Positions 365 to 42,400 of a stretch of 64,000 bases of DNA are shown piece by piece. The stretch's first letter is position 1, and the number at the start of each line of letters is the position of its first letter. The position numbers and the translations under genes were made by a program. Below the pieces are notes generated by a model, which was not told where the DNA came from, did not search any database, and worked only from the letters and a program-made list of their open reading frames with translations. This DNA comes from the human T2T-CHM13v2.0 reference genome, Homo sapiens, in assembly GCA_009914755.4 (NCBI GenBank), contig CP086569.2:28800001-28864000 (forward strand), written 5' to 3'.

Positions 365-399
365 TTGCATTGCATTCCATTCCGTTTGATTCCAGTCCA

Positions 400-1405: not shown

Positions 1406-1418
1406 TTCGAGAACCTTC
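1406..1418. promoter_or_regulatory. Second perfect HSE-consensus TTCgaGAAccTTC, once per array-1 HOR (tttttttcgagaaccttcc). In array 2 it is degraded to TTGgaGAAccTTC or GAActTTC.
   Basis: Read directly at 1401-1420, with periodic recurrence at +2377. A 2-unit GAAatTTC also occurs at 1870-1877. Confidence 0.25.
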
Positions 1419-19377: not shown

Positions 19378-21754
19378 TTGCATTGCATTCCATTCCGTTT
19401 GATTCCAGTCCATTCAAGAAAGTTCCATTCCAGTCCATTGCTTTCGAGTCCATTCCATTCCACTCTAGTCTATTCCACTCCATTCCTTTCCATTCCATTC
19501 CATACTATTCCATTCCATTCCTTTGCATTCCGTTTCCAATCTATTCGAGTCCATTACATTCCAGTCCAATCCATTCGATTACATTCCTCTTGATTCCCTG
19601 CCAGTCGATTGCATTGCATACTAGACCATTCCAAAGGAGTCCATTCCATTCTATTTCAACACTTCCCATTCCACTCTGTTCGAGTCCATTCCATTCCAGT
19701 CCATTTAATTCAAGGGCATTCCATTCCATTCCATTCCATTTCATATTATTCTATTCCATTCAATTCCATTCCAGATGATTCCATTCCATTCTATACCATT
19801 GCTCTCTGTTCCATTCCATTCCATCTGTCTCCATTCCTTTCGTTTCGATTCCTTTCCATTCCATTCCATTACATTTGATCCTATTTTATTAAATTGCATT
19901 CTATTCGAGTGATTTCCATTCGAGTCCTTTCCATTCGATTCCATTCCATTCTATTCCATTCCTTTGGATTCCATTCCATTCCGTTCCGTTCATATCAATT
20001 CCTTGCCATTCCATTACATTCGATTTCTTGCCATTCGATTCCATTCCTTTTGACTCCATTTCATTCGATTCCATTCCATTCCATTAATTTCCATTCCATT
20101 CGAGACCTTTCCATTGCAGTCTTTTCCCTTCGAGTCCATTCCGTTCGATTCCCTTCCATTGGAGTCCGTACCAGTCTAGTCCATTCTATTCCAGTCCATT
20201 AGTTTCGACTCCATTGCATTCGAGTGCATTCCATTCCGTGGCTGTCCATTGCATTCCGTTTGATGCCATTCCATATGATTCCATTCAATTCGAGACCATT
20301 CTATTCCTTTCCATTCCTTGTGGTTCGATTCCATTTTACTCTAGTCCATTCCATTCCATTGAATTCCATTCGACTCTATTCCGTTCCATTCAATTCCATT
20401 CCATTCGATTCCATTTTTTTCGAGAACCTTCCATTACACTCCCTTCCATTCCAGTGCATTCCATTCCAGTCTCTTCAGTTCTATTCCATTCCATTCGTTT
20501 CGATTCCATTCCACTCCAGCCCATTCCATTCCATTCCATTCCTTTCTTTCCGTTTCATTAGATTCCATTGCATTCAATTCCATTCAAATCAATTCCGTGC
20601 TATTCAATTTGATTCCTTTCCATTTAATTCCATAGCATTAGATTCCATTCCGTTCGATTCCATTCCATTTGATGCCATTCCATTTGATGCCATTCCGTGA
20701 CATTCCATTCCATTCGAGTCCATTCCGTTCCAATTCATTCCATTCCGTTTCATGAAATTCGAGTCCTTTCCAGTACATTTCATTCCAATCCCATCCAATC
20801 CAATCTATTCCATTCAATTCCTTTCCCTTCCATTTGATTATATTCCATTGATTTGATTCCATTCAGTTTGATTCCATTCCGTGAAATTTCGTTCCATTCT
20901 ATTCCATTGCATTACTTTCCATTCAATTCCATTCCATTTCATTTCTGTCCATTCGCTTCCTTTCCTTTCGATTCAATTCCATTTGATTCCACTCCATTCT
21001 ATGCGATTTCATTGCAATCGATTCAATTCCATTCGATGACATTCCTTTCGTTTCCATTCCATTAGAGTCCATTCAATTTGAGCATTCGTGTCCATTCTAT
21101 TCGAGTCCATTCCATTACCGTCTATTCTATTCCCTTCCATTCCTGTTGATTCAATTTCATTCCCTTCCATTCGATTCCTTTCCATTCGATTCCATTCCTT
21201 TCCATTCCATTCCATTCGTTCCCATTCCATGTGATTTCATTCCATTCCAGTGCATTATATTCGAGTCCACTCCACTCCATTCTATTACATTCAATTCCTC
21301 ATGAGTCCGTTCCATAACACTCCCTGCATTTCGATTCCATTTCTTGCCAGTTTTCTTCCATTTTATTGCATTCCGTTCGATTCCATTCCATTCGATTGCA
21401 TTCCATTCGATTGCATTCCATTCGAATCCTTTCCATTCCTTTCTATTCCATTCCATTTCATTCGATTTGATTCCATTCTGTTCTATTCCATTCAATTCTT
21501 TTTCATTCCATTCGAATCCTTTCTATTGCAGTCCATTCCATTCGAGTCCATTCCAATCCCTTCCATCCATTCCATTACAGTCCATTCCAATAGATTCCAC
21601 TCCTTTGCCTTCCATTCGAATCCATTCCATTCTAGTCCATTCCATTTGAGTCAATTCCATTCCATTCCATTCTATTCCTTTCCAATCCATTCGATTCCAT
21701 TCGATTCAATTCCATTTAATTCTCTTTCATTCTATTTTATTCCATGCCATTTGA
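19378..21754. repeat. Array 1 HOR unit u9 (2377 bp, subtype B).
   Basis: B markers at 20604, 20638, 20853 and 21250. The 301-aa peptide is identical to the one at 4613. Confidence 0.8.
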
Positions 21755-24131
21755 TTGCATTGCATTCCATTCCGTTTGATTCCAGTCCATTCAAGAAAGT
21801 TCCATTCCAGTCCATTGCTTTCGAGTCCATTCCATTCCACTCTAGTCTATTCCACTCCATTCCTTTCCATTCCATTCCATACTATTCCATTCCATTCCTT
21901 TGCATTCCGTTTCCAATCTATTCGAGTCCATTACATTCCAGTCCAATCCATTCGATTACATTCCTCTTGATTCCCTGCCAGTCGATTGCATTGCATACTA
22001 GACCATTCCAAAGGAGTCCATTCCATTCTATTTCAACACTTTCCATTCCACTCTGTTCGAGTCCATTCCATTCCAGTCCATTTAATTCAAGGGCATTCCA
22101 TTCCATTCCCTTCCATTTTATATTATTCTATTCCATTCAATTCCATTCCAGATGATTCCATTCCATTCTATACCATTGCTCTCTGTTCCATTCCATTCCA
22201 TCTGTCTCCATTCCTTTCGTTTCGATTCCTTTCCATTCCATTCCATTACATTTGATCCTATTTTATTAAATTGCATTCTATTCGAGTGATTTCCATTCGA
22301 GTCCTTTCCATTCGATTCCATTCCATTCTATTCCATTCCTTTGGATTCCATTCCATTCCGTTCCGTTCACATCAATTCCTTGCGATTCCATTACATTCGA
22401 TTTCTTGCCATTCGATTCCATTCCTTTTGACTCCATTTCATTCGATTCCATTCCATTCCATTAATTTCCATTCCATTCGAGACCTTTCCATTGCAGTCTT
22501 TTCCCTTCGAGTCCATTCCGTTCGATTCCCTTCCATTGGAGTCCGTACCAGTCGAGTCCATTCTATTCCAGTCCATTAGTTTCGACTCCATTGCATTCGA
22601 GTGCATTCCATTCCGTGGCTGTCCATTCCATTCCGTTTGATGCCATTCCATACGATTCCATTCAATTCGAGACCATTCTATTCCTGTCCATTCCTTGTGG
22701 TTCGATTCCATTTTACTCTAGTCCATTCCATTCCATTGAATTCCATTCGACTCTATTCCGTTCCATTCAATTCCATTCCATTCGATTCCATTTTTTTCGA
22801 GAACCTTCCATTACACTCCCTTCCATTCCAGTGCATTCCATTCCAGTCTATTCAGTTCTATTCCATTCCATTCGTTTCGATTCCATTCCTCTCCAGCCCA
22901 TTCCATTCCATTCCATTCCTTTCTTTCCGTTTCATTAGATTCCATTGCATTCAATTCCATTCAATTCAATTCCGTGCTATTCAATTTGATTCCTTTCCAT
23001 TTAATTCCATAGCATTAGATTCCATTCCGTTCGATTCCATTCCATTTGATGCCATTCCATTTGATGTCATTCCGTGACATTCCATTCCATTCGAGTCCAT
23101 TCCGTTCCAATTCATTCCATTCCGTTTCATGAAATTCGAGTCCTCTCCAGTACATTTCATTCCAATCCCAACCAATCCAATCTATTCCATTCAATTCCTT
23201 TCCCTTCCATTTGATTATATTCCATTGATTTGATTCCATTCAGTTTGATTCCATTCCGTGAAATTTCGTTCCATTCTATTCCATTGCATTACTTTCCATT
23301 CAATTCCATTCCATTTCATTTCTGTCCATTCGCTTCCTTTCCTTTCGATTCAATTCCATTTGATTCCACTCCATTCTATGCGATTTCATTGCAATCAATT
23401 CAATTCCATTCGATGACATTCCTTTCGTTTCCATTCCATTCGAGTCCATTCAATTTGAGCATTCGTGTCCATTCTATTCGAGTCCATTCCATTACCGTCT
23501 ATTCTATTCCCTTCCATTCCTGTTGATTCAATTTCATTCCCTTCCATTCAATTCCTTTCCATTCGATTCCATTCCTTTCCATTCCATTCCATTCGTTCCC
23601 ATTCCATGTGATTTCATTCCATTCCAGTGCATTATATTTGAGTCCACTCCACTCCATTCTATTACATTCAATTCCTCATGAGTCCGTTCCATAACACTCC
23701 CTGCATTTCGATTCCATTTCTTGCCAGTTTTCTTCCATTTTATTGCATTCCGTTCGATTCCATTCCATTCGATTGCATTCCATTCGATTGCATTCCATTC
23801 GAATCCTTTCCATTCCTTTCTATTCCATTCCATTTCATTCGATTTGATTCCATTCTGTTCTATTCCATTCAATTCTTTTTCATTCCATTCGAATCCTTTC
23901 TATTGCAGTCCATTCCATTCGAGTCCATTCCAATCCCTTCCATCCATTCCATTACACTCCATTCCAATAGATTCCACTCCTTTGCCTTCCATTCGAATCC
24001 ATTCCATTCTAGTCCATTCCATTTGAGTCAATTCCATTCCATTCCATTCTATTCCTTTCCAATCCATTCGATTCCATTCGATTCAATTCCATTTAATTCT
24101 CTTTCATTCTATTTTATTCCATGCCATTTGA
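21755..24131. repeat. Array 1 HOR unit u10 (2377 bp, subtype C).
   Basis: MVGIG (22981) and MYWRG (23015) variants exactly 11,883 bp after u5. The same private variants as u5 appear at ~23398 and ~23636. Confidence 0.8.
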
Positions 24132-26512
24132 TTGCATTGCATTCCATTCCGTTTGATTCCAGTCCATTCAAGAAAGTTCCATTCCAGTCCATTGCTTTCG
24201 AGTCCATTCCATTCCACTGTAGTCTATTCCACTCCATTCCTTTCCATTCCATTCCATACTATTCCATTCCATTCCTTTGCATTCCGTTTCCAATCTATTC
24301 GAGTCCATTACATTCCAGTCCAATCCATTCGATTACATTCCTCTTGATTCCCTGCCAGTCGATTGCATTGCATACTAGACCATTCCAAAGGAGTCCATTC
24401 CATTCTATTTCAACACTTTCCATTCCACTCTGTTCGAGTCCATTCCATTCCAGTCCATTTAATTCAAGGGCATTCCATTCCATTCCATTCCATTTCATAT
24501 TATTCTATTCCATTCAATTCCATTCCAGATGATTCCGTTCCATTCTATACCATTGCTCTCTGTTCCATTCCATTCCATCTGTCTCCATTCCTTTCGTTTC
24601 GATTCCTTTCCATTCCATTCCATTACATTTGATCCTATTTTATTAAATTGCATTCTATTCGAGTGATTTCCATTCGAGTCCTTTCCATTCGATTCCATTC
24701 CATTCTATTCCATTCCTTTGGATTCCATTCCATTCCGTTCCGTTCACATCAATTCCTTGCGATTCCATTACATTCGATTTCTTGCCATTCGATTCCATTC
24801 CTTTTGACTCCATTTCATTCGATTCCATTCCATTCCATTAATTTCCATTCCATTCGAGACCTTTCCATTGCAGTCATTTCCCTTCGAGTCCATTCCGTTC
24901 GATTCCCTTCCATTGGAGTCCGTACCAGTCGAGTCCATTCTATTCCAGTCCATTAGTTTCGACTCCATTGCATTCGAGTGCATTCCATTCCGTGGCTGTC
25001 CATTCCATTCCGTTTGATGCCATTCCATACGATTCCATTCAATTCGAGACCATTCTATTCCTGTCCATTCCTTGTGGTTCGATTCCATTTTACTCTAGTC
25101 CATTCCATTCCATTCCATTGAATTCCATTGGACTCTATTCCGTTCCATTCAATTCCATTCCATTCGACTCCATTTTTTTCGAGAACCTTCCATTACACTC
25201 CCTTCCATTCCAGTGCATTCCATTCCAGTCTCTTCAGTTCTATTCCATTCCATTCGTTTCGATTCCATTCCACTCCAGCCCATTCCATTCCATTCCATTC
25301 CTTTCTTTCCGTTTCATTAGATTCCATTGCATTCAATTCCATTCAATTCAATTCCGTGCTATTCAATTTGATTCCTTTCCATTTAATTCCATAGCATTAG
25401 ATTCCATTCCGTTTGATTCCATTCCATTTGATGCCATTCCATTTGATGCCATTCCGTGACATTCCATTCCATTCGAGTCCATTCCATCCAATTCATTCCA
25501 TTCCGTTTCATGAAATTCGAGTCCTTTCCAGTACATTTCATTCCAATCCCATCCAGTCCAATCTATTCCATTCAATTCCTTTCCCTTCCATTTGATTATA
25601 TTCCATTGATTTGATTCCATTCAGTTTGATTCCATTCCGTGAAATTTCGTTCCATTCTATTCCATTGCATTACTTTCCATTCAATTCCATTCCATTTCAT
25701 TTCAGTCCATTCGCTTCCTTTCCTTTCGATTCAATTCCATTTGATTCCACTCCATTCTATGCGATTTCATTCCAATCGATTCAATTCCATTCAATGACAT
25801 TCCTTTCCTTTCCATTCCATTCGAGTCCATTCAATTTGAGCATTCGTGTCCATTCTATTCGAGTCCATTCCATTACCGTCTATTCTATTCCCTTCCATTC
25901 CTGTTGATTCAATTTCATTCCCTTCCATTCAATTCCTTTCCATTCGATTCCATTCCTTTCCATTCCATTCCATTCGTTCCCATTCCATGTGATTTCATTC
26001 CATTCCAGTCCATTATATTCGAGTCCACTCCACTCCATTCTATTACATTCAATTCCTCATGAGTCCGTTCCATAACACTCCATGCATTTCGATTCCATTT
26101 CTTGCCAGTTTTCTTCCATTTTATTCCATTCCGTTCGATTCCATTCCATTCGATTGCATTCCATTCGATTGCATACCATTCGAATCCTTTCCATTCCTTT
26201 CTATTCCATTCCATTTCATTCGATTTGATTCCATTGTGTTCTATTCCATTCAATTCTTTTTCATTCCATTCGAATCGTTTCTATTGCAGTCCATTCCATT
26301 CGAGTCCATTCCAATCCCTTCCATCCATTCCATTACAGTCCATTCCAATAGATTCCACTCCTTTGCCTTCCATTCGAATCCATTCCATTCTAGTCCATTC
26401 CATTTGAGTCAATTCCATTCCATTCCATTCTATTCCTTTCCAATCCATTCGATTCCATTCGATTCAATTCCATTTGATTCTCTTTCATTCTATTTTATTC
26501 CATGCCATTTGA
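24132..26512. repeat. Array 1 HOR unit u11 (2381 bp, subtype A2, with one extra pentamer).
   Basis: 85-aa peptide at 25363 and 88-aa peptide at 25128, each 11,888 bp after its u6 counterpart. An extra 'cattc' near 25101-25116 gives the 2381-bp length. Confidence 0.8.
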
Positions 26513-28889
26513 TTGCATTGCATTCCATTCCGTTTGATTCCAGTCCATTCAAGAAAGTTCCATTCCAGTCCATTGCTTTCGAGTCCATTCCATTCCACTC
26601 TAGTCTATTCCACTCCATTCCTTTCCATTCCATTCCATACTATTCCATTCCATTCCTTTGCATTCCGTTTCCAATCTATTCGAGTCCATTACATTCCAGT
26701 CCAATCCATTCGATTACATTCCTCTTGATTCCCTGCCAGTCGATTGCATTGCATACTAGACCATTCCAAAGGAGTCCATTCCATTCTATTTCAACACTTT
26801 CCATTCCACTCTGTTCGAGTCCATTCCATTCCAGTCCATTTAATTCAAGGGCATTCCATTCCATTCCATTCCATTTCATATTATTCTATTCCATTCAATT
26901 CCATTCCAGATGATTCCATTCCATTCTATACCATTGCTCTCTGTTCCATTCCATTCCATCTGTCTCCATTCCTTTCGTTTCGATTCCTTTCCATTCCATT
27001 CCATTACATTTGATCCTATTTTATTAAATTGCATTCTATTCGAGTGATTTCCATTCGAGTCCTTTCCATTCGATTCCATTCCATTCTATTCCATTCCTTT
27101 GGATTCCATTCCATTCCGTTCCGTTCATATCAATTCCTTGCCATTCCATTACATTCGATTTCTTGCCATTCGATTCCATTCCTTTTGACTCCATTTCATT
27201 CGATTCCATTCCATTCCATTAATTTCCATTCCATTCGAGACCTTTCCATTGCAGTCTTTTCCCTTCGAGTCCATTCCGTTCGATTCCCTTCCATTGGAGT
27301 CCGTACCAGTCTAGTCCATTCTATTCCAGTCCATTAGTTTCGACTCCATTGCGTTCGAGTGCATTCCATTCCGTGGCTGTCCATTGCATTCCGTTTGATG
27401 CCATTCCATATGATTCCATTCAATTCGAGACCATTCTATTCCTGTCCATTCCTTGTGGTTCGATTCCATTTTACTCTAGTCCATTCCATTCCATTGAATT
27501 CCATTCGACTCTATTCCGTTCCATTCAATTCCATTCCATTCGATTCCATTTTTTTCGAGAACCTTCCATTACACTCCCTTCCATTCCAGTGCATTCCATT
27601 CCAGTCTCTTCAGTTCTATTCCATTCCATTCGTTTCGATTCCATTCCACTCCAGCCCATTCCATTCCATTCCATTCCTTTCTTTCCGTTTCATTAGATTC
27701 CATTGCATTCAATTCCATTCAAATCAATTCCGTGCTATTCAATTTGATTCCTTTCCATTTAATTCCATAGCATTAGATTCCATTCCGTTCGATTCCATTC
27801 CATTTGATGCCATTCCATTTGATGCCATTCCGTGACATTCCATTCCATTCGAGTCCATTCCGTTCCAATTCATTCCATTCCGTTTCATGAAATTCGAGTC
27901 CTTTCCAGTACATTTCATTCCAATCCCATCCAATCCAATCTATTCCATTCAATTCCTTTCCCTTCCATTTGATTATATTCCATTGATTTGATTCCATTCA
28001 GTTTGATTCCATTCCGTGAAATTTCGTTCCATTCTATTCCATTGCATTACTTTCCATTCAATTCCATTCCATTTCATTTCTGTCCATTCGCTTCCTTTCC
28101 TTTCGATTCAATTCCATTTGATTCCACTCCATTCTATGCGATTTCATTGCAATCGATTCAATTCCATTCGATGACATTCCTTTCGTTTCCATTCCATTAG
28201 AGTCCATTCAATTTGAGCATTCGTGTCCATTCTATTCGAGTCCATTCCATTACCGTCTATTCTATTCCCTTCCATTCCTGTTGATTCAATTTCATTCCCT
28301 TCCATTCGATTCCTTTCCATTCGATTCCATTCCTTTCCATTCCATTCCATTCGTTCCCATTCCATGTGATTTCATTCCATTCCAGTGCATTATATTCGAG
28401 TCCACTCCACTCCATTCTATTACATTCAATTCCTCATGAGTCCGTTCCATAACACTCCCTGCATTTCGATTCCATTTCTTGCCAGTTTTCTTCCATTTTA
28501 TTGCATTCCGTTCGATTCCATTCCATTCGATTGCATTCCATTCGATTGCATTCCATTCGAATCCTTTCCATTCCTTTCTATTCCATTCCATTTCATTCGA
28601 TTTGATTCCATTCTGTTCTATTCCATTCAATTCTTTTTCATTCCATTCGAATCCTTTCTATTGCAGTCCATTCCATTCGAGTCCATTCCAATCCCTTCCA
28701 TCCATTCCATTACACTCCATTCCAATAGATTCCACTCCTTTGCCTTCCATTCGAATCCATTCCATTCTAGTCCATTCCATTTGAGTCAATTCCATTCCAT
28801 TCCATTCTATTCCTTTCCAATCCATTCGATTCCATTCGATTCAATTCCATTTAATTCTCTTTCATTCTATTTTATTCCATGCCATTTGA
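26513..28889. repeat. Array 1 HOR unit u12 (2377 bp, subtype B).
   Basis: B markers at 27739, 27773, 27988 and 28385. Confidence 0.8.
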
Positions 28890-29670
28890 TTGCATTGCAT
28901 TCCATTCCGTTTGATTCCAGTCCATTCAAGAAAGTTCCATTCCAGTCCATTGCTTTCGAGTCCATTCCATTCCACTCTAGTCTATTCCACTCCATTCCTT
29001 TCCATTCCATTCCATACTATTCCATTCCATTCCTTTGCATTCCGTTTCCAATCTATTCGAGTCCATTACATTCCAGTCCAATCCATTCGATTACATTCCT
29101 CTTGATTCCCTGCCAGTCGATTGCATTGCATACTAGACCATTCCAAAGGAGTCCATTCCATTCTATTTCAACACTTTCCATTCCACTCTGTTCGAGTCCA
29201 TTCCATTCCAGTCCATTTAATTCAAGGGCATTCCATTCCATTCCATTCCATTTCATATTATTCTATTCCATTCAATTCCATTCCAGATGATTCCATTCCA
29301 TTCTATACCATTGCTCTCTGTTCCATTCCATTCCATCTGTCTCCATTCCTTTCGTTTCGATTCCTTTCCATTCCATTCCATTACATTTGATCCTATTTTA
29401 TTAAATTGCATTCTATTCGAGTGATTTCCATTCGAGTCCTTTCCATTCGATTCCATTCCATTCTATTCCATTCCTTTGGATTCCATTCCATTCCGTTCCG
29501 TTCACATCAATTCCTTGCGATTCCATTACATTCGATTTCTTGCCATTCGATTCCATTCCTTTTGACTCCATTTCATTCGATTCCATTCCATTCCATTAAT
29601 TTCCATTCCATTCGAGACCTTTCCATTGCAGTCTTTTCCCTTCGAGTCCATTCCGTTCGATTCCCTTCCA

Positions 29671-29685
29671 TTCGATTCCATTCCA
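29671..29685. repeat. 15-bp (three-pentamer) tandem duplication 'ttcgattccattcca', diagnostic of all array-2 units.
   Basis: Array 1 reads cgattcccttccattggagtcc. Array 2 reads cgattcccttcca|ttcgattccattcca|ttggagtcc. This gives the 107-aa versus 102-aa peptide difference (extra IRFHS) in every 3.5-kb unit. Confidence 0.8.
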
Positions 29686-30194
29686 TTGGAGTCCGTACCA
29701 GTCGAGTCCATTCTATTCCAGTCCATTAGTTTCGACTCCATTGCATTCGAGTGCATTCCATTCCGTGGCTGTCCATTCCATTCCGTTTGATGCCATTCCA
29801 TACGATTCCATTCAATTCGAGACCATTCTATTCCTGTCCATTCCTTGTGGTTCGATTCCATTTCACTATAGTCCATTCCATTCCATTGAATTCCATACGA
29901 CTCTATTCCGTTCCATTCAATTCCATTCCTTTCGATTCCATTTTTTTGGAGAACCTTCCATTACACTCCCTTCCATTCCAGTGCATTCCATTCCAGTCTC
30001 TTCAGTTCGATTCCATTCCATTCGTTTCAATTCCATTCCATTCCAGCCCATTCCATTCCATTCCATTCCTTTCCTTTCCGTTTCATTAGATTCCATTGCA
30101 TTCGATTCCATTCAATTCAATTCCGTGCTATTCAATTTGATTCATTTCCATTTAATTCCATTGCATTAGATTCCATTCCGTTCGATTCCATTCC

Positions 30195-31324
30195 TTTCGA
30201 ATCCATTCCATTGGAGTCCATTCACTTCCAGAACATTCCCTTCCAGTCGAATCCATTCGAGTAGATTCCATTAATGTTCATTACATTCTACTACATTCCA
30301 TTCCATTGCATTCCATTCCATTCCGTTCGATGCCATTCGATTCCACTCCATGCCAAATCATTGCATTCCTTTCCACTCCGTTCCTATCAATTCAATTCCA
30401 TTCGATTTAGTTCGATTCTATTCACTTCCATTCCATCCGATTCCATTCCATTGGAGTCAATTCCTTTCGACACCCAGCCTTTCCAGTCAATGATTTTGGA
30501 TTCCATTTTTTTGCATTCCATTACATTCTATGACATTCGATTCCGTTTCATTGCATTCCATTCCATACATTTTTATTCCATTCGAGACCGTAGCATTCTG
30601 CTTTATTCCAGGCCTGTCCATTGCACTACATTCCCTTCCATTCCAATGAATTCCATTCCATTCCAATCCATTCCTTTCCTTTCGCTTGTATTCCATTCTA
30701 TTCTCTTCTACTGCATACAATTTCACTCCATTCGTTCCCATTCCATTCAATTCCATTCCATTCAATTCCATTCCATTTGTTTCCATTCTCTTCGATTCCA
30801 TTTCTTTATATTCCATGCCATTCGATTCCATTCTATTGGATTGCATTACATTCGTATTCACTCCATTCCAGACCATTCCATTTGACTCCATTCCTTTCGA
30901 GCCCTTTCAACTTAAGTCCATTCCTTTCCAGTCCATTTCACTCCAGTCCATTACTGTCCATTCCATACCATTCCATCCCATTCCATTCCATTCCATTGCA
31001 TTCCATTCCATTCCGTTCCATTGCACTGTACTCCATTCCATTACATTCTACTCCATTTGAGTCGATTTTATTGCATTAGATTCTATTCCATTGGATTGCT
31101 TTCCATTCGATTACATTCCATTCATGTACATTCCATTCCAGTCAATTACATTCGAGTTCATTACATTACATTCCAGTATATTCCATTGTATTCGGTCCCA
31201 TTCCTTTCAATTCCATTTCATTAGACTCCATTATATTCGATTCCATTCCACTCGAATACATTCCATTAGAGGACATTCCATTCCAATGCATTCCATTCCA
31301 TTTCATAGCATTCCATCGCATTCG
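30195..31324. repeat. ~1.13-kb array-2-specific HOR segment (first copy), bounded by 14-bp direct repeats 'ttcgattccattcc' at ~30181-30194 and ~31311-31324. It is absent from the 2.38-kb units and recurs once per 3.53-kb unit.
   Basis: Alignment by eye: array 1 at 1641-1690 equals the left flank (ccgttcgattccattcc) joined directly to the right flank (atttgatgccattcc...). In array 2 the two flanks are separated by diverged pentamer sequence containing cgacacccagcctttccagtcaatgattttgg, gagaccgtagcattc and ccaggcctgtcc. Confidence 0.75.
30611..30614. other. HaeIII (GGCC) site within 'ccaggcctgtcc', which appears to occur only once per 3.53-kb unit and is not seen in array 1.
   Basis: Recurs at ~34144, ~37671, etc. 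It is mutated in v7 (ccaagcctgtcc ~51821) and v8 (ccattcctgtcc ~55350). No GGCC noticed in the 2.38-kb units on visual scan. Confidence 0.5.
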
Positions 31325-32423
31325 ATTCCATTCCATTTGATGCCATTCCATGACATTCCATTCCATTCGAGTCCATTCCGTTCCAATTCATTCCATTCCG
31401 TTTCATGAAATTCGAGTCCTTTCCAGTACATTTCATTCCAATCACATCCAATCCAATCTACTCCATTCAATTCCTTTCCATTCCATTTGATTATTTTCCA
31501 TTGATTTGATTCCATTCAGTTTGATTCCATTCCGTGAAATTTCGTTCCATTCTATTCCATTGCATTACTTTCCATTCAATTCCATTCCATTTCATTTCAG
31601 TCCATTCGCTTACTTTCCTTTCGATTCAATTCCATTTGATTCCACTCCATTCTATGTGATTTCATTCCAATCGATTCAATTCCATTCGATGACATTCCTT
31701 TCGTTTCCATTCCATTCGAGTCCATTTAATTTGAGCATTCGTGTCCATTCTATTCGAGTCCATTCCATTACCGTCTATTCTACTCCCTTCCATTCCTGTT
31801 GATTCAATTTCATTCCCTTCCATTCGATTCCTTTCCATTCGATTCCATTCCTTTCCATTCCATTCCATTCGTTCCCATTCCATGTGATTTCATTCCATTC
31901 CAGTCCATTATATTCGAGTCCACTCCACTCCATTCTATTACATTCAATTCCTTTTGAGTCCGTTCCATAACACTCCATTCATTTCGAATCCATTTCTTGC
32001 CAGTTTTCTTCCATTTTATTCCATTCCGTTCGATTCCATTCCATTCGATTGCATTCCATTCGATTGCATTCCATTCGAATCCTTTCCATTCCATTTCATT
32101 CCATTCCTTTCTATTCCATTCCATTTCATTCGATTTGATTCCATTCTGTTCTATTCCATTCAATTCTTTTTCATTCCATTCGAATCCTTTCTATTGCAGT
32201 CCATTCCATTCGAGTCCATTCCAATCCCTTCCATTCCATTCCATTACAGTCCATTCCAATAGATTCCATTCCTTTGCCTTCCATTCGAATCCATTCCATT
32301 CTAGTCCATTCCATTTGAGTCAATTCCATTCCATTCCATTCTATTCCTTTCCAATCCATTCGATTCCATTCGATTCAATTCCATTTGATTCTCTTTCATT
32401 CTATTTTATTCCATGCCATTTCA

Positions 32424-35400
32424 TTGCATTGCATTGCATTCCGTTTGATTCCAGTCCATTCAAGAAAGTTCCATTCCAGTCCATTGCTTACGAGTCCATT
32501 CCATTCCACTCTAGTCTATTCCACTCCATTCCTTTCCATTCCATTCCATACTATTCCATTCCATTCCTTTGCTTTCCGTTTCTAATCTATTCGAGTCCAT
32601 TGCATTCCAGTCCAATCCATTCGATTACATGCCTTTTGATTCCCTGCCAGTCGATTGCATTGCATACTAGACCATTCCAAACGAGTCCATTCCATTCTAT
32701 TTCAACAATTTCCATTCCACTCTGTTCGAGTCCATTCCATTCCAGTCCATTTAATTCAAGGGCATTCCATTCCATTCCATTCCATTTCATATTATTCCAT
32801 TCCATTCAATTCCATTCCAGATGATTCCATTCCATTCTATACCATTGCTCTCTGTTCCATTCCATTCCATCTGTCTCCATTCCTTTCGTTTCGATTCCTT
32901 TCCATTCCATTCCATTACATTTGATCCTATTTTATTAAATTGCATTCTATTCGAGTGATTTCCATTCGAGTCCTTTCCATTCGATTCCATTCCATTCTAT
33001 TCCATTCCTTTGGATTCCATTCCATTCCGTTCCGTTCACATCCATTCCTTGTGATTCCATTACATTCGATTTCTTGCCATTCGATTCCATTCCTTTTGAC
33101 TCCATTTCATTCGATTCCATTCCATTCCATTAATTTCCATTCCATTCGAGACCTTTACATTGCAGTCTTTTCCCTTCGAGTCCATTCCGTTCGATTCCCT
33201 TCCATTCGATTCCATTCCATTGGAGTCCGTACCAGTCGAGTCCATTCTATTCCAGTCCATTAGTGTCGACTCCATTGCATTCGAGTGCATTCCATTCCGT
33301 GGCTGTCCATTCCATTCCGTTTGATGCCATTCCATACGATTCCATTCAATTCGAGACCATTCTATTCCTGTCCATTCCTTGTGGTTCGATTCCATTTCAC
33401 TCTAGTCCATTCCATTCCATTGAATTCCATACGACTCTATTCCGTTCCATTCAATTCCATTCCTTTCGATTCCATTTTTTTGGAGAACTTTCCATTACAC
33501 TCCCTTCCATTCCAGTGCATTCCATTCCAGTCTCTTCAGTTCGATTCCATTCCATTCGTTTCGATTCCATTCCATTCCAGCCCATTCCATTCAATTCCAT
33601 TCCTTTCCTTTCCGTTTCATTAGATTCCATTGCATTCGATTCCATTCAATTCAATTCCGTGCTATTCAATTTGATTCATTTCCATTTAATTCCATTGCAT
33701 TAGATTCCATTCCGTTCGATTCCATTCCTTTCGAATCCATTCCATTGGAGTCCATTCACTTCCAGAACATTCCATTCCAGTCGAATCCATTCGAGTAGAT
33801 TCCATTAATGTTCATTACATTCTACTACATTCCATTCCATTGCATTCCATTCCATTCCGTTCGATGCCATTCGATTCCACTCCATGCCAAATCATTGCAT
33901 TCCTTTCCACTCCGTTCCTATCAATTCAATTCCATTCGATTTAGTTCGATTCTATTCACTTCCATTCCATCCGATTCCATTCCATTGGAGTCAATTCTTT
34001 CGACACCCAGCCTTTCCAGTCAATGATTTTGGATTCCATTTTTTTGCATTCCATTACATTCTATGACATTCGATTCCGTTTCATTGCATTCCATTCCATA
34101 CATTTTTATTCCATTCGAGACCGTAGCATTCCACTTTATTCCAGGCCTGTCCATTGCACTACATTCCCTTCCATTCCAATGAATTCCATTCCATTCCAAT
34201 CCATTCCTTTCCTTTCGCTTGTTTTCCATTCTATTCTCTTCTACTGCATACAATTTCACTCCATTCGTTCCCATTCCATTCAATTCCATTCCATTCAATT
34301 CCATTCCATTTGTTTCCTTTCTCTTCGATTCCATTTCTTTATATTCCATGCCATTCGATTCCATTCTATTGCATTGCATTACATTCGTATTCACTCCATT
34401 CCAGACCATTCCATTTGACTCCATTCCTTTCGAGCCCTTTCAACTTAAGTCCATTCCTTTCCAGTCCATTTCACTCCAGTCCATTACTGTCCATTCCATA
34501 CCATTCCATCCCATTCCATTCCATTCCATTCCATTCCATTGCATTCCATTCCATTCCGTTCCATTGCACTGTACTCCATTCCATTACATTCTACTCCATT
34601 TGAGTCGATTTTATTGCATTAGATTCTATTCCATTGGATTGCTTTCCATTCGATTACATTCCATTCATGTACATTCCATTCCAGTCAATTACATTCGAGT
34701 TCATTACATTACATTCCAGTATATTCCATTGTATTCGGACCCATTCCTTTCAATTCCATTTCATTAGACTCCATTATATTCGATTCCATTCCACTCGAAT
34801 ACATTCCATTAGAGGACATTCCATTCCAATGCATTCCATTCCATTTCATAGCATTCCATCGCATTCGATTCCATTCCATTTGATGCCATTCCATGACATT
34901 CCATTCCATTCGAGTCCATTCCGTTCCAATTCATTCCATTCCGTTTCATGAAATTCGAGTCCTTTCCAGTACATTTCATTCCAATCACATCCAATCCAAT
35001 CTACTCCATTCAATTCCTTTCCATTCCATTTGATTATTTTCCATTGATTTGATTCCATTCAGTTTGATTCCATTCCGTGAAATTTCGTTCCATTCTATTC
35101 CATTGCATTACTTTCCATTCAATTCCATTCCATTTCATTTCAGTCCATTCGCTTCCTTTCCTTTCGATTCAATTCCATTTGATTCCACTCCATTCTATGC
35201 GATTTCATTCCAATCGATTCAATTCCATTCGATGACATTCCTTTCGTTTCGATTCCATTCGATTCCATTCAATTTGAGCATTCGTGTCCATTCTATTCGA
35301 GTCCATTCCATTACCGTCTATTCTATTCCCTTCCATTCCTGTTGATTCAATTTCATTCCCTTCCATTCGATTCCTTTCCATTCGATTCCATTCCTTTCCA

Positions 35401-35956
35401 TTCCATTCCATTCGTTCCCATTCCATGTGATTTCATTCCATTCCAGTCCATTATATTCGAGTCCACTCCACTCCATTCTATTACATTCAATTCCTTTTGA
35501 GTCCGTTCCATAACACTCCATTCATTTCGATTCCATTTCTTGCCAGTTTTCTTCCATTTTATTCCATTCCGTTCGATTCCATTCCTTTCGATTGCATTCC
35601 ATTCGATTGCATTCCATTCGAATCCTTTCCATTCCATTTCATTCCATTCCTTTCTATTCCATTCCATTTCATTCGATTTGATTCCATTCTGTTCTATTCC
35701 ATTCAATTCTTTTTCATTCCATTCGAATCCTTTCTATTGCAGTCCATTCCATTCAAGTCCATTCCAATCCCTTCCATTCCATTCCATTACAGTCCATTCC
35801 AATAGATTCCATTCCTTTGCCTTCCATTCGAATCCATTCCATTCTTGTCCATTCCATTTGAGTCAATTCCATTCTATTCCTTTCCAATCCATTCGATTCC
35901 ATTTGATTCAATTCCATTTGATTCTCTTTCATTCTATTTTATTCCATGCCACTTGA
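32424..35956. repeat. Array 2 HOR unit v2 (3533 bp, insert subtype Y).
   Basis: Insert at 33808 carries a 1-bp deletion (gtcaattctttcgacaccc) that truncates the peptide to 72 aa. The 134-aa peptide is the KRKETNG/ENKRKE variant. Confidence 0.75.
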
Positions 35957-38900
35957 TTGCATTGCATTCCATTCCGTTTGATTCCAGTCCATTCAAGAAA
36001 GTTCCATTCCAGTCCATTGCTTTCCAGTCCATTCCATTCCACTCTAGTCTATTCCACTCCATTCCTTTCCATTCCATTCCATAATATTCCATTCCATTCC
36101 TTTGCTTTCCGTTTCCAATCTATTCGAGTCCATTGCATTCCAGTCCAATCCATTCGATTACATTCTTTTGATTCCCTGCCAGTCGATTGCATTGCATACT
36201 AGACCATTCCAAACGAGTCCATTCCATTCTATTTCAACACTTTCCATTCCACTCTGTTCGAGTCCATTCCATTCCAGTCCATTTAATTCAAGGGCATTCC
36301 ATTCCATTCCATTCCATTTCCTGTTATTCCATTCCATTCAATTCCATTCCAGATGATTCCATTCCATTCTATACCTTTGCTCTCTGTTCCATTCCATTCC
36401 ATCTGTCTCCATTCCTTTCGTTTCGATTCCTTTCCATTCCATTCCATTACATTTGATCCTATTTTATTAAATTGCATTCTATTCGAGTGCTTTCCATTCG
36501 AGTCCTTTCCATTCGATTCCATTCCATTCTATTCCATTCTTTTGGATTCCATTCCGTTCCGTTCCGTTCACATCAATTCCTTGCGATTCCATTACATTCG
36601 ATTTCTTGCCATTCGATTCCATTCCTTTTGACTCCATTTCATTCGATTCCATTCCATTCCATTAATTTCCATTCCATTCGAGACCTTTCCATTGCAGTCT
36701 TTTCCCTTCGAGTCCATTCCGTTCGATTCCCTTCCATTCGATTCCATTCCATTGGAGTCCGTACCAGTCGAGTCCATTCTGTTCCAGTCCATTAGTTTCG
36801 ACTCCATTGCATTCGAGTGCATTCCATTCCGTGGCTGTCCATTCCATTTCGTTTGATGCCATTCCATAAGATTCCATTAAATTCGAGACCATTCTATTCC
36901 TGTCCATTCCTTGTGGTTCGATTCCATTTCACTCTAGTCCATTCCATTCCATTGAATTCCATTCGACTCTATTCCGTTCCATTCAATTCCATTCCTTTCG
37001 ATTCCCTTTTTTTCGAGAACCTTCCATTACACTCCCTTCCATTCCAGTGCATTCCATTCCAGTCTCTTCAGTTCGATTCCATTCCATTCGTTTCGATTCC
37101 ATTCCATTCCAGCCCATTCCATTCCATTCCATTCCTTTCCTTTCCGTTTCATTAGATTCCATTGCATTCGATTCCATTCAATTCATTTCCGTTCTATTCA
37201 ATTTGATTCATTTCCATTTAATTCCATTCCATTAGATTCCATTCCTTTCGAATCCATTCCATTGGAGTCCATTCACTTCCAGAACATTCCATTCCAGTCG
37301 AATCCATTCGAGTACATTCCATTAAAGTTCATTACATTCTAATACATTCCATTCCATTGCATTCCATTCCATTCCATTCGATGCCATTCGATTCCATTCC
37401 ATGCCAAATCATTGCATTCCTTTCCATTCCGTTCCTATCCATTCCATTCCATTCGATTTAGTTCGATGCTATTCACTTCCATTCCATTCGATTCCATTCC
37501 ATTGGAGTCAATTCCTTTCGACACCCAGCCTTTCCAGTCAATGATTTTGGATTCCATTTTTTTGCATTCCATTACATTCTATGACATTCGATTCCATTTC
37601 ATTGCATTCCGTTCCATACATTTTTATTCCATTCGAGACCGTAGCATTCCACTTTATTCCAGGCCTGTCCATTACACTACATTCCCTTCCATTCCAATGA
37701 ATTCCATTCCATTCCAATCCATTCCTTTCCTTTCGCTTGCATTCCATTCTATTCTCTTCTACTGCATACAATTTCACTCCATTCGTTCCCATTCCATTCA
37801 ATTCCATTCCATTCAATTCCATTCCATTTGTTTCCATTCTCTTCAATTCCATTTCTTTATATTCCATGCCATTCGATTCCATTCTATTGGATTGCATTAC
37901 ATTCGTGTTCATTCCATTCCAGACCATTCCATTTGACTCCATTCCTTTCGAGCCCTTTCAATTTGAGTCCATTCTTTTCCAGTCCATTTCTCTCCAGTCC
38001 ATTACTATCCATTCCATACCATTCCATCCCATTCCATTCCATTCCATTCAATTCCATTGCATTCCATTCCATTCCATTCCTTTGCACTGCACTCCATTCC
38101 ATTACATTCTACTCTCTTTGAGTCGATTTTATTGCTTTAGATTCTATTCCATTGGATTACTATCCATTCGATTACATTCCATTCATGTACATTCCATTCC
38201 AGTCAATTACATTCGTGTTCATTACATTACATTCCAGTATATTCCATTTTATTCGGTCCCATTCCTTTCAATTCCATTTCATTCGACTCCATCATATTCC
38301 ATTCCATTCCACTCGAATCCATTCCATTAGAGGACATTCCATTCCAATGCATTCCATTCCATTCCATAGCATTCCATTGCATTCGATTCCATTCCATTTG
38401 ATGCCATTCCATTTGATGCCATTCCATGACATTCCATTCCATTCGAGTCCATTCCATTCCAATTCATTCCATTCCGTTTCATGAAATGCGAGTCCTTTCC
38501 ATTCCATTTCATTCCAATCCCATCCAATCCAATCTACTCCATTCAATTCCTTTCCATTCCATTTGATTATATTCCATTGATTTGATTCCATTCAGTTTGA
38601 TTCCATTCCGTGAAATTTCGTTCCATTCTATTCCATTGCATTACTTTCCATTCAATTCCATTCCATTTCATTTCAGTCCATTTGCTTCCTTTCCTTTCGA
38701 TTCAATTCCATTTGATTCCACTCCATTCTATGCGATTTCATTCCAATCGATTCAATTCCATTCGTTGACATTCCTTTCGTTTCCATTCCATTCGAGTCCA
38801 TTCAATTTGAGCATTCGTGTCCATTCTATTCGAGTCCATTCCATTACCGTCTATTCTATTCCCTTGCATTCCTGTTGATTCAATTTCATTCCCTTCCATT

Positions 38901-39483
38901 CGATTCCTTTCCATTCGATTCCATTCCTTTCCATTCCATTCCATTCGTTCCCATTCCATGTGATTTCATTCCATTCCTGTCCATTATATTCGAGTCCACT
39001 CCACTCCATTCTATTACATTCAATTCCTTTTGAGTCCGTTCCATAACACTCCATTCATTTCGATTCCATTTCTTGCCAGTTTGCTTCCATTTTATTCCGT
39101 TCCGTTCGATTCCATTCCATTCCATTGCATTCCATTCGAATCCTTTCCATTCCATTTCATTCCATTCCTTTCTATTCCATTCCATTTCATTTGATTTGAT
39201 TCCATTCTGTTCTATTCCATTCAATTCTTTTTCATTCCATTCGAATCCTTTCTATTGCAGTCCATTCCATTCGAGTCCATTCCAATCCCTTCCATTCCAT
39301 TCCATTACAGTCCATTCCAATAGATTCCATTCCTTTGCATTCCATTCGAATCCATTCCATTCTAGTCCATTCCATTTGAGTCAATTCCATTCCATTCCAT
39401 TCTATTCCTTTCCAATCCATTCGATTCCATTCGATTCAATTCCATTTGATTCTCTTTCATTCATTTTATTCCATGCCATTTGA
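35957..39483. repeat. Array 2 HOR unit v3 (3527 bp, insert subtype Z).
   Basis: MHSFPFRSYPFHS insert variant at 37412. M-type 134-aa peptide at 37538. Head carries the MLSVS variant block (36102). Confidence 0.75.
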
Positions 39484-42400
39484 TTGCATTGCATTCCATT
39501 CCGTTTGATTCCAGTCCATTCAAGAAAGTTCCATTCCAGTCCATTGCTTTCCAGTCCATTCCATTCCACTCTAGTCTATTCCACTCCATTCCTTTCCATT
39601 CCATTCCATAATATTCCATTCCATTCCTTTGCTTTCCGTTTCCAATCTATTCGAGTCCATTGCATTCCAGTCCAATCCATTCGATTACATTCCTTTTGAT
39701 TCCCTGCCAGTCGATTGCATTGCATACTAGACCATTCCAAACGAGTCCATTCCATTCTATTTCAACACTTTCCATTCCACTCTGTTCGAGTCCATTCCAT
39801 TCCAGTCCATTTAATTCAAGGGCATTCCATTCCATTCCATTCCATTTCATATTATTCCATTCCATTCAATTCCATTCCAGATGATTCCATTCCATTCTAT
39901 ACCATTGCTCTCTGTTCCATTCCATTCCATCTGTCTCCATTCCTTTCGTTTCGATTCCTTTCCATTCCATTCCATTACATTTGATCCTATTTTATTAAAT
40001 TGCATTCTATTCGAGTGATTTCCATTCGAGTCCTTTCCATTCGATTCCATTCCATTCTATTCCATTCCTTTGGATTCCATTCCATTCCGTTCCGTTCACA
40101 TCCATTCCTTGTGATTCCATTACATTCGATTTCTTGCCATTCGATTCCATTCCTTTTGACTCCATTTCATTCGATTCCATTCCATTCCATTAATTTCCAT
40201 TCCATTCGTGACCTTTACATTGCAGTCTTTTCCCTTCGAGTCCATTCCGTTCGATTCCCTTCCATTCGATTCCATTCCATTGGAGTCCGTACCAGTCGAG
40301 TCCATTCTATTCCAGTCCATTAGTGTCGACTCCATTGCATTCGAGTGCATTCCATTCCGTGGCTGTCCATTCCATTCCGTTTGATGCCATTCCATACGAT
40401 TCCATTCAATTCGAGACCATTCTATTCCTGTCCATTCCGTGTGGTTCGATTCCATTTCACTATAGTCCATTCCATTCCATTGAATTCCATACGACTCTAT
40501 TCCGTTCCATTCAATTCCATTCCTTTCGATTCCATTTTTTTGGAGAACCTTCCATTACACTCCCTTCCATTCCAGTGCATTCCATTCCAGTCTCTTCAGT
40601 TCGATTCCATTCCATTCGTTTCTATTCCATTCCATTCCAGCCCATTCCATTCCATTCCATTCCTTTCCTTTCCGTTTCATTAGATTCCATTGCATTCGAT
40701 TCCATTCAATTCAATTCCGTGCTATTCAATTTGATTCATTTCCATTTAATTCCATTGCATTAGATTCCATTCCGTTCGATTCCATTCCTTTCGAATCCAT
40801 TCCATTGGAGTCCATTCACTTCCAGAACATTCCATTCCAGTCGAATCCATTCGAGTAGATTCCATTAATGTTCATTACATTCTACTACATTCCATTCCAT
40901 TGCATTCCATTCCATTCCGTTCGATGCCATTCGATTCCACTCCATGCCAAATCATTGCATTCCTTTCCACTCCGTTCCTATCAATTCAATTCCATTCGAT
41001 TTAGTTCGATTCTATTCACTTCCATTCCATCCGATTCCATTCCATTGGAGTCAATTCCTTTCGACACCCAGCCTTTCCAGTCAATGATTTTGGATTCCAT
41101 TTTTTTGCATTCCATTACATTCTATGACATTCGATTCCGTTTCATTGCATTCCATTCCATACATTTTTATTCCATTCGAGACCGTAGCATTCCACTTTAT
41201 TCCAGGCCTGTCCATTGCACTACATTCCCTTCCATTCCAATGAATTCCATTCCATTCCAATCCATTCCTTTCCTTTCGCTTGTATTCCATTCTATTCTCT
41301 TCTACTGCATACAATTTCACTCCATTCGTTCCCATTCCATTCAATTCCATTCCATTCAATTCCATTCCATTTGTTTCCATTCTCTTCAATTCCATTTCTT
41401 TATATTCCATGCCATTCGATTCCATTCTATTGGATTGCATTACATTCGTGTTCATTCCATTCCAGACCATTCCATTTGACTCCATTCCTTTCGAGCCCTT
41501 TCAATTTGAGTCCATTCTTTTCCAGTCCATTTCACTCCAGTCCATTACTATCCATTCCATACCATTCCATCCCATTCCATTCCATTCCATTCAATTCCAT
41601 TGCATTCCATTCCATTCCATTCCATTGCACTGCACTCCATTCCATTACATTCTACTCTCTTTGAGTCGATTTTATTGCTTTAGATTCTATTCCATTGGAT
41701 TACTATCCATTCGATTACATTCCATTCATGTACATTCCATTCCAGTCAATTACATTCGTGTTCATTACATTACATTCCAGTATATTCCATTTTATTCGGT
41801 CCCATTCCTTTCAATTCCATTTCATTCGACTCCATCATATTCCATTCCATTCCACTCGAATCCATTCCATTAGAGGACATTCCATTCCAATGCATTCCAT
41901 TCCATTCCATAGCATTCCATTGCATTCGATTCCATTCCATTTGATGCCATTCCATTTGATGCCATTCCATGACATTCCATTCCATTCGAGTCCATTCCGT
42001 TCCAATTCATTCCATTCCGTTTCATGAAATTCGAGTCCTTTCCAGTACATTTCATTCCAATCACATCCAATCCAATCTACTCCATTCAATTCCTTTCCAT
42101 TCCATTTGATTATTTTCCATTGATTTGATTCCATTCAGTTTGATTCCATTCCGTGAAATTTCGTTCCATTCTATTCCATTGCATTACTTTCCATTCAATT
42201 CCATTCCATTTCATTTCAGTCCATTCGCTTACTTTCCTTTCGATTCAATTCCATTTGATTCCACTCCATTCTATGTGATTTCATTCCAATCGATTCAATT
42301 CCATTCGATGACATTCCTTTCGTTTCCATTCCATTCGAGTCCATTTAATTTGAGCATTCGTGTCCATTCTATTCGAGTCCATTCCATTACCGTCTATTCT

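What the first reader, a model, noticed from the sequence alone, without database searches (positions are those of the whole stretch)
30181..31324. The 2.38-kb and 3.53-kb HORs differ by one ~1.13-kb block flanked by 14-bp direct repeats
Array 2 reads ...ccgttcgattccattcc | 1.13 kb | ...gcattcgattccattcc atttgatgcc.... Array 1 reads ...ccgttcgattccattcc atttgatgcc..., with a single copy of the repeat. This is the footprint of an intra-unit deletion (3.5 -> 2.4 kb) or insertion by exchange between the short direct repeats, followed by amplification of the derived unit. Together with the 15-bp duplication at 29671, it accounts for essentially the whole 1157-bp length difference.
Basis: seen in the sequence. 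Interest (0 to 1): 0.6.

Follow-up and report, generated by a model that had tools for sequence, protein, structure and literature searches.

The report
Deletion-derived short DYZ1 satellite repeat
Two adjacent arrays of the human Y-chromosome satellite DYZ1 differ because the 2.38-kb unit lost one contiguous ~1.15-kb piece of the normal ~3.55-kb unit between two copies of a 14-base motif and was then amplified, which is real and cleanly resolved but is ordinary satellite-DNA behaviour.

Summary
The window is entirely (CATTC)n satellite: 12 units of 2376-2381 bp, then 10 units of about 3.53 kb. The two forms are 97.7% identical. They differ by one contiguous block of 1125-1150 bp, depending on the unit, plus a few 15-bp and 1-bp indels. 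TTCGATTCCATTCC flanks the block in long units and occurs once at the short-unit junction.

Both arrays belong to HSat3A6/DYZ1, the Y-chromosome satellite. Evidence is the diagnostic 24-mer, eight published DYZ1 primers in the published order, and 98-99% identity to independent 3569-bp units.

Polarity is a deletion:
- The block has no donor elsewhere in the unit, only 68-69% background similarity.
- About 40 independent external DYZ1 copies all carry the block.
- The short junction is the exact product expected from a long variant present in the window.
- Short-form private substitutions mostly depart from the pentamer consensus.

A 14-bp junction microhomology has P of about 0.002-0.003 for random breakpoints. 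There is no longer homology around it.

The "15-bp duplication at 29671" is more likely a loss in the short lineage.

The block holds the defining HaeIII site and a recalled, unconfirmed sexing-PCR primer pair. I found no description of this short form. The mechanism is textbook, so interest is low to moderate.

The parts
1..29264 (+). Short-HOR array. It holds 12 complete units of 2376-2381 bp (unit starts 358 to 26506) plus a partial unit at the window start. This is the HSat3A6/DYZ1 unit lacking the ~1.15-kb block.
   Evidence: within-array divergence is 0.82%; the HSat3A6 24-mer occurs once per unit; no GGCC site in the array.
29265..29665 (+). Switch interval inside hybrid unit 28883, the in-register boundary between the two arrays. 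Short-lineage alleles run up to 29264 (possibly 29518). Long-type states run from 29666 onwards.
   Evidence: diagnostic columns 158-383(-637) versus 785 onwards.
29666..64000 (+). Long-HOR array. It holds 10 units of 3518-3549 bp (one of 3303 bp) that are collinear with the published 3.56-kb DYZ1 unit.
   Evidence: 98.3-99.1% identity to independent 3569/3574-bp units.
30181..30194 (+). Left copy of the 14-bp direct repeat TTCGATTCCATTCC in the first long unit.
30195..31334 (+). Block present in long units and absent from short units, counted with one repeat copy. It is 1140 bp here, 1150 bp in unit 39477 (40789-41938) and 1170 bp in canonical DYZ1. All three lengths are multiples of 5.
   Evidence: no internal donor, only 68-69.5% similarity in every register.
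31321..31334 (+). Right copy of the 14-bp direct repeat.
27788..27831 (+). Deletion junction in the last short unit: a single TTCGATTCCATTCC followed by ATTTGATGCCATTCC twice. The same junction is found at 1640, 4016, 6393, 8770, 11147, 13524, 15900, 18277, 20653 and 23030. A variant with one changed base (TTTGATTCCATTCC) lies in unit 24125.
40775..41968 (+). Progenitor-like configuration in long unit 39477: left 14-mer (40775-40788), block, right 14-mer (41925-41938), then the doubled 15-mer (41939-41968). Deleting between the repeats gives the short junction exactly.
30597..30750 (+). Region inside the block that holds the only HaeIII site of the unit (GGCC at 30611) and a 154-bp amplicon. 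The amplicon's primer pair is recalled from memory as the classical DYZ1 sexing primers. Published primers A and H flank the HaeIII site.
29666..29680 (+). 15-bp segment (TTCCATTCGATTCCA) present in long units and in canonical DYZ1 and absent from all short units.
   Evidence: (28 of 30 external copies have it).
32084..32098 (+). Second 15-bp segment present in the window's long units but absent from the short units. It is also absent from the 3569/3574-bp canonical units, so it is polymorphic.

Best explanation
Both arrays are HSat3A6/DYZ1, the Y-chromosome-specific pentameric satellite. The 2,377-bp unit arose from a normal DYZ1 unit of about 3.55 kb by one in-register deletion of about 1.15 kb. 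The deletion lay between two copies of the 14-base motif TTCGATTCCATTCC, and one copy was kept. In DYZ1 numbering it removed roughly 415 bp upstream to 725-750 bp downstream of the HaeIII site.

The only homology at the breakpoints is the 14-mer. The most likely mechanism is therefore a microhomology-mediated event: replication slippage or template switching, microhomology-mediated end joining, or a misaligned sister-chromatid or intrachromatid exchange.

The deleted unit was then amplified into its own tandem array by unequal sister-chromatid exchange, including a later 5-unit (11.9-kb) duplication. Along the way it acquired 16 private substitutions and a few small indels. It now abuts a long-unit array through an in-register recombinant unit.

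Shown: the block, the repeats, DYZ1 identity, the absence of a donor, and the presence of the block in all other copies. Inferred: the polarity (strongly), the molecular mechanism, and the amplification route.
For: - One contiguous gap with a 14-bp direct repeat.
- P of about 0.002-0.003 for such microhomology at random breakpoints.
- Flank identity of 67% against a background of 63 +/- 6%, so there is no extended homology.
- The block matches the rest of the unit only at the 68-69% background level, so it is not a recent duplication.
- About 36 DYZ1-type left-flank matches from metagenome contigs and 6 from bacterial assemblies all continue into the block; none shows the short junction.
- The canonical 3569-bp unit compared with the short unit shows 1.6% substitutions and one 1170-bp gap.
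- The doubled 15-mer after the junction is the common external state, 16 of 22 copies.
- At about 20 of the fixed short-versus-long differences the external copies agree with the long form.
- Short-form private alleles are essentially absent from the external copies: five fragments carry one each, three of those at the junction-artefact column 1319.
- 11 of 13 informative private substitutions depart from the pentamer consensus.
- Other indels in the window show the same signature: a 230-bp deletion with 9-bp microhomology, and 5/10/15-bp indels in repeat context.
- HSat3A6 identity rests on the diagnostic 24-mer (PMC4022460) and the published primers in order (PMC3925983).
- Super-repeat structure and the hybrid boundary unit.
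Against: - The short form is a clean terminal branch, not nested inside the long-form diversity. A root on that branch, meaning the short form is ancestral and the block was inserted, is not formally excluded by tree shape.
- In the commonest canonical units the left motif reads TACGATTCCATTCC. The exact 14-bp microhomology therefore presupposes a GTTCG-type progenitor. Such units do exist: 7 of 10 local long units, plus L007, L014 and L029.
- A multi-step deletion cannot be excluded.
- The external copies come from collapsed or contaminant contigs.
- No primate outgroup or human assembly could be searched.
Confidence: 0.85

Rival explanations
1. Insertion polarity. The 2.38-kb unit is ancestral, and a 1.15-kb piece of pentameric satellite was inserted at the 14-mer, duplicating it. 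That would have created the 3.5-kb DYZ1 unit, which then spread.
For: The short form is a separate terminal branch, so rooting on it is formally possible. The flanking direct repeat would equally fit a target duplication.
Against: - There is no donor. The block is only 68-69% similar to everything else in the unit, while the shared parts are 97.7% identical.
- Every other DYZ1 lineage sampled has the block, including the window's two long subtypes, which differ by 2-4% within the block.
- Short-form private substitutions are mostly departures from the pentamer consensus.
- The classical DYZ1 unit, tens of megabases in size, is defined by a HaeIII site inside the block.
Confidence: 0.06
2. Several smaller deletions accumulated to remove the 1.15 kb, or a larger rearrangement was followed by repair. 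On this view the 14-mer at the junction is incidental.
For: The window shows frequent small in-register indels and a 230-bp deletion inside the block of one unit. The 14-mer is the commonest 15-mer-phase motif of the satellite.
Against: - No intermediate forms were found among the 10 local long units or about 40 external copies.
- Sequence on both sides of the junction is exactly collinear with the long form up to the repeat.
- Microhomology of 14 bp or more is rare by chance, P of about 0.002-0.003.
Confidence: 0.06
3. Assembly artefact: the short array is a mis-assembly or collapse of normal DYZ1 units.
For: Yq12 satellites are among the hardest regions to assemble. No read data are available here. 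The short junction was not found in any public collection searched.
Against: - Twelve consecutive units share 16 private substitutions and several private indels absent from long units.
- They have their own 5-unit super-repeat with graded divergence.
- A collapse would not create consistent private alleles.
Confidence: 0.03

Closest known systems
DYZ1 / HSat3A6, the ~3.56-kb HaeIII repeat of human Yq12
   Same: - The window's long units are collinear with it: eight published primers in order and a single HaeIII site.
- They carry the HSat3A6 24-mer.
- They are 98.3-99.1% identical to independent 3569/3574-bp units.
- The short units share the 24-mer and six of the eight primers.
(PMC4022460; PMC3925983; Hallast preprint.)
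   Different: - Local long units are 3518-3549 bp, not the modal 3564-3569 bp.
- The short unit lacks about 1.15 kb, including the HaeIII site and primers A and H.
- I found no description of a 2.4-kb DYZ1 derivative. Reported intra-unit indels are 5-114 bp (PMC3925983, PMC3660188).
Deletion-derived HOR variants of other satellites, for example the DYZ3 alpha-satellite 34-mer derived from the 36-mer by monomer deletions
   Same: An internal piece of a higher-order unit is lost in register, and the shortened unit is then amplified and homogenised into its own array. (Hallast supplement Fig. S58; unequal-exchange model cited.)
   Different: The lost piece here is not a whole monomer of a 171-bp lattice. 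It is 230 pentamers bounded by a 14-bp motif, with no long homology at the breakpoints.
The 2.7-kb repeat of the Yq11/Yq12 transition zone (Hallast et al.)
   Same: It is a shorter, DYZ1-related unit on the Y, about 97% identical to DYZ1 over most of its length.
   Different: That unit is about 2.7 kb, and 23% of it is DYZ18-like. The unit here is 2,377 bp and aligns to DYZ1 over its whole length.
DYZ2 / HSat1B, the ~2.4-kb Yq12 repeat
   Same: Only the unit length (about 2.4 kb) and the chromosomal neighbourhood.
   Different: DYZ2 is AT-rich with an Alu fragment. The short unit here is pentameric throughout with 39% GC.

Membership tests
HSat3 (pentameric CATTC satellite) | Tandem array derived from the pentamer CATTC/GAATG | tested here: met
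   TRF covers 1-63985 with 5n periods; uniform 38-39% GC and strong strand skew.
HSat3A6 / DYZ1 | Subfamily-specific 24-mer TCGTTTCGATTCCTTTCCATTCCA (Altemose 2014, Table 1) | tested here: met
   it occurs once per unit in 21 of 22 units, in both arrays. The example 24-mers of the other 13 subfamilies give 0 hits.
HSat3A6 / DYZ1 | Higher-order unit of about 3.56 kb cut once by HaeIII | tested here: met
   This is met for the long units; one GGCC per unit in 8 of 10 long units, with the site lost by point mutation in the other 2, at spacings of 3518-3549 bp. It is not met for the short units, which are 2377 bp and have no GGCC.
HSat3A6 / DYZ1 | Collinearity with the published DYZ1 unit (primers A-H of PMC3925983) | tested here: met
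   all 8 primers map once per long unit in the published order and orientation. Six of the 8 map in the short units. A and H, which flank the HaeIII site, are absent there.
HSat3A6 / DYZ1 | High identity to independent DYZ1 units | tested here: met
   against the 3569-bp (L051) and 3574-bp (L046) units, the long consensuses differ by 0.9-1.7% and the short consensus by 1.6%.
HSat3A6 / DYZ1 | Location on the human Y chromosome (Yq12) | not testable with these tools
   No human assembly is searchable. Location is inferred from the literature statement that the subfamily is Y-specific.
Direct-repeat (microhomology) mediated deletion | A single contiguous missing segment, with a repeat at both ends in the long form and one copy at the junction | tested here: met
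Direct-repeat (microhomology) mediated deletion | The long form is ancestral (the outgroup has the segment, and no donor exists for an insertion) | tested here: met
   The outgroups are other human DYZ1 copies. No non-human outgroup was available.
Classical unequal homologous crossover | Extended homology (tens to hundreds of bp) around the exchange point | tested here: not met
   flanks are 67% identical, within the background of 63 +/- 6%.
2.7-kb Yq11/Yq12 transition repeat | Unit of about 2.7 kb with about 23% DYZ18-like sequence | tested here: not met
   the unit is 2377 bp and fully alignable to DYZ1. No DYZ18 sequence was available for direct comparison.

The most novel reading that the evidence does not exclude
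The 2.38-kb unit may be an undescribed DYZ1 sub-array that classical DYZ1 assays cannot see. It has no HaeIII site, and published primers A and H and the recalled sexing-PCR pair have no match in it. If so, it could account for some of the very long HaeIII-resistant fragments (over 200 kb) seen in virtual digests of Yq12, and it could serve as a stable structural marker on the Y phylogeny. The left breakpoint may also be a recurrent fragile or slippage site. The 15-mer there is highly variable or missing in many copies, and one external contig (L018) loses DYZ1 homology 9 bp beyond it.
Probability: 0.3. Interest if true: 0.35.

Novelty: new member of a known kind. Interest (0 to 1): 0.25.

Why it matters
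- It is a clean, base-resolved example of how a new higher-order repeat is born in a non-recombining heterochromatic satellite: one microhomology-bounded deletion, then amplification, private divergence and an in-register hybrid boundary.
- The short array lacks the HaeIII site, published primers A and H, and the binding sites of the recalled sexing-PCR primer pair. Copy-number or array-structure estimates based on those markers would miss it.
- Its junction and 16 private variants are ready-made k-mer markers for tracing this sub-array across Y haplogroups.
- It does not change the understanding of satellite evolution.

Tried and rejected
- **Internal donor for the block.** I looked for a duplication origin and found only 68-69.5% similarity in every register. 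Rejected.
- **Extended homology around the 14-mers.** None was found.
- **An ancient ~1.18-kb sub-periodicity** (3.53/3 is close to 2.38/2). No register stands out. Rejected.
- **Nesting of the short form within long-form diversity.** The apparent sharing with 'C-type' long units turned out to reflect derived changes in 'A-type' units once outgroups were added. Short-form private alleles are not shared by external copies. Nesting is therefore not shown.
- **Literature check of the recalled sexing primers** TCCACTTTATTCCAGGCCTGTCC and TTGAATGGAATGGGAACGAATGG. No paper was found, so that attribution rests on memory. DYZ1 identity is supported instead by published primers and the HSat3A6 24-mer.
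- **Short junction in public collections.** It gave 0 hits in genome contigs and viral contigs and was absent among the 45 metagenome loci.
- **MAFFT --addfragments** misplaced several fragments (L012, L029, L034, L039, L015_918). Their distances were ignored. The first attempt timed out.
- **DYZ2 and the 2.7-kb repeat** were considered as the identity of the short unit and rejected on composition and length.

Full report
**What is in the window**

The whole 64 kb is pentameric (CATTC)n satellite on one strand, with 38-39% GC and a strong strand skew. K-mer self-distances show two higher-order periods: 2376/2377 bp up to about 27.5 kb, and 3518-3549 bp afterwards, with one 3303-bp unit. Anchoring on one phase gives 12 short units (starts 358 to 26506) followed by 10 long units (starts 28883 to 60463).

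**Check of the observation**

Its gaps are 15 + 1 + 1125 + 15 + 1 = 1157 bp. In a joint alignment of all 22 units, every short unit lacks the same contiguous columns, 1325-2474.

TTCGATTCCATTCC lies at 30181-30194 and 31321-31334. The spacing is 1140 bp in that unit and 1150 bp in unit 39477. It occurs once at each short-form junction. The refutation criterion, a length difference spread over many small indels, is not met.

The accounting needs a correction. All short units read ATTTGATGCCATTCC twice after the junction, whereas seven of the ten local long units have it once. A second fixed 15-bp difference lies at 32084-32098. The sum is therefore 1140 - 15 + 15 + 15 + 1 + 1 = 1157.

**Is the flanking repeat more than chance?**

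The 14-mer is the satellite's own 15-mer consensus. It occurs 192 times in the window and 11 times per long unit. About 950 direct-repeat pairs of at least 14 bp exist per unit at 0.5-2.5 kb spacing.

For random breakpoints, however, a junction microhomology of at least 14 bp has P = 0.0019, or 0.0033 if kept in 5-bp register. The flanks beyond the 14-mer are 67% identical, which is background (63 +/- 6%).

Other indels in the window carry the same signature:
- A 230-bp deletion in unit 57160 has a 9-bp microhomology.
- The 5/10/15-bp indels lie in 7-27 bp repeat contexts, and all are multiples of 5.

**Identity**

- The HSat3A6 example 24-mer of Altemose et al. 2014 (PMC4022460) occurs once per unit in 21 of 22 units, in both arrays. 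The example 24-mers of the other 13 HSat2/3 subfamilies give no hits.
- Eight published DYZ1 primers (PMC3925983, Table 5) map once per long unit in the published order and orientation. The two that flank the HaeIII site are absent from the short array.
- Each long unit has at most one HaeIII site, and it lies inside the block. The short array has none in 28.9 kb.
- A primer pair that I recall as the classical DYZ1 sexing primers matches once per long unit, 154 bp apart, inside the block. I could not confirm that attribution in the library.
- The literature describes DYZ1 as a Y-specific HSat3 occurring 'primarily' as units of about 3.6 kb, with modal HaeIII fragments of 3564-3569 bp.

**Independent copies**

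A pattern from the left flank found 45 loci in metagenome contigs and 6 in bacterial genome assemblies. These are human contamination.
- All DYZ1-type left-flank matches continue into the block, and none shows the short junction.
- Nine loci belong to another HSat3 array.
- 16 of 22 external right junctions have the doubled 15-mer, as the short form does.
- L051 collapses to exactly 3569 bp and L046 to 3574 bp.

Comparison of the window consensuses with the 3569-bp unit (L051):

| Window consensus | Substitutions | Gaps |
|---|---|---|
| Short | 1.60% | 5 + 15 + 1 + 1170 + 1 bp |
| Long 'A-type' | 1.73% | small indels only |
| Long 'C-type' | 0.93% | small indels only |

**Polarity**

- The block matches the rest of the unit only at the 68-69.5% background in every register, while shared parts of the two forms are 97.7% identical. 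A recent insertion by intra-array duplication is therefore excluded.
- All other sampled DYZ1 lineages have the block.
- At about 20 fixed short-versus-long differences the external copies agree with the long form. These include the 15 bp at 29666-29680, which is thus a short-lineage loss and not a long-form duplication. At 3-5 sites the external copies agree with the short form.
- The short-form private alleles are essentially absent from external copies, so the short form is a terminal lineage.
- 11 of 13 informative private substitutions move away from the pentamer consensus.
- The short junction is the exact deletion product of a long variant with GTTCG on the left and a doubled 15-mer on the right. 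Such a variant exists in the window (unit 39477) and among the external loci.

Caveats: the short form is not nested within long-form diversity, and no non-human outgroup was available. In the commonest canonical units the left motif is TACGATTCCATTCC, so the perfect 14-bp match presupposes a GTTCG-type progenitor.

**History after the event**

- The short units diverge by 0.82% among themselves, against 2.3% from the long units.
- They form a 5-unit (11,883-bp) super-repeat.
- They meet the long array in an in-register hybrid unit. Short-lineage alleles run up to 29264 (possibly 29518) and long-type states from 29666 onwards.

This fits amplification by unequal sister-chromatid exchange, the mechanism the Y-assembly papers invoke for Yq12.

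**Comparison with what is known, and novelty**

The process, internal deletion of a higher-order unit followed by amplification, is well known. The DYZ3 34-mer derived from the 36-mer is one example. Reported DYZ1 intra-unit indels are 5-114 bp. The 2.7-kb transition repeat differs in being longer and partly DYZ18-like. I found no description of a 2.38-kb DYZ1 derivative, but no human assembly could be searched. I rate it a new member of a known kind, of low to moderate interest.

Noticed in passing
window 358-28882: The short array is itself organised as a 5-unit super-repeat of 11,883 bp with unit types a-b-a-b-c. Units five apart differ by 0.1-0.6%, whereas neighbours differ by about 1%.
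   Followed up: partly
window 28883-64000: The long array mixes two subtypes. 'A-type' units (such as 43025, 46559 and 50092) have about a dozen derived changes and have lost one ATTTGATGCCATTCC copy. 'C-type' units (35950, 57160, 60463) are close to canonical DYZ1: 0.9% overall and 0.8% in the block. A partial 6-unit (21,210-bp) periodicity is visible.
   Followed up: partly
window 59022 (unit 57160); equivalent 62325-62554 in unit 60463: One unit carries a 230-bp in-register deletion inside the block, flanked by a 9-bp microhomology (CCATTCCAT). This gives the 3303-bp unit, and it clips one of the recalled sexing-PCR primer sites.
   Followed up: yes
window 51807-51829 and 55340-55362: Two long units have lost the HaeIII site by point mutation (GGCC to AGCC, and GGCC to TTCC). 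This produces a 10.6-kb HaeIII-free stretch and shows how HaeIII-based unit counts can mislead.
   Followed up: partly
window 30178-30194 and homologous sites; L001-L051: The 15-mer holding the left repeat is unusually variable between DYZ1 copies. It reads GTACG (commonest outside the window), GTTCG (A-type and the short form), TTTCG (two of the three C-type units) or CTTCG. It is missing altogether in C-type unit 35950 and in about 10 external loci. This looks like a local slippage hot spot.
   Followed up: partly
L018 (OOKJ01003324.1) nt 1-1482: This contig matches the DYZ1 left flank for 133 nt and loses homology 9 bp beyond the left 14-mer. It continues as other HSat3-like sequence for about 650 bp and then as non-satellite (L1/Alu-like) DNA. 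It is either an array edge or a chimeric contig. The break is within about 10 bp of the deletion's left breakpoint.
   Followed up: no
L046-L051 (for example Actinomadura cremea JCM 3308 BMRF01000076.1; Streptomyces and Nocardia drafts): Human Y-chromosome DYZ1 units are present as contaminant contigs in deposited bacterial genome assemblies. Two are circularly collapsed single units of 3569 and 3574 bp. About 36 metagenome contigs likewise carry DYZ1.
   Followed up: partly
L011, L013, L019, L031-L033, L038, L043, L045: Nine metagenome loci share the 29-nt search pattern (with ...CATTACATTCC...) but are only about 71-73% similar to the DYZ1 unit. They presumably come from a different HSat3 array.
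   Followed up: no
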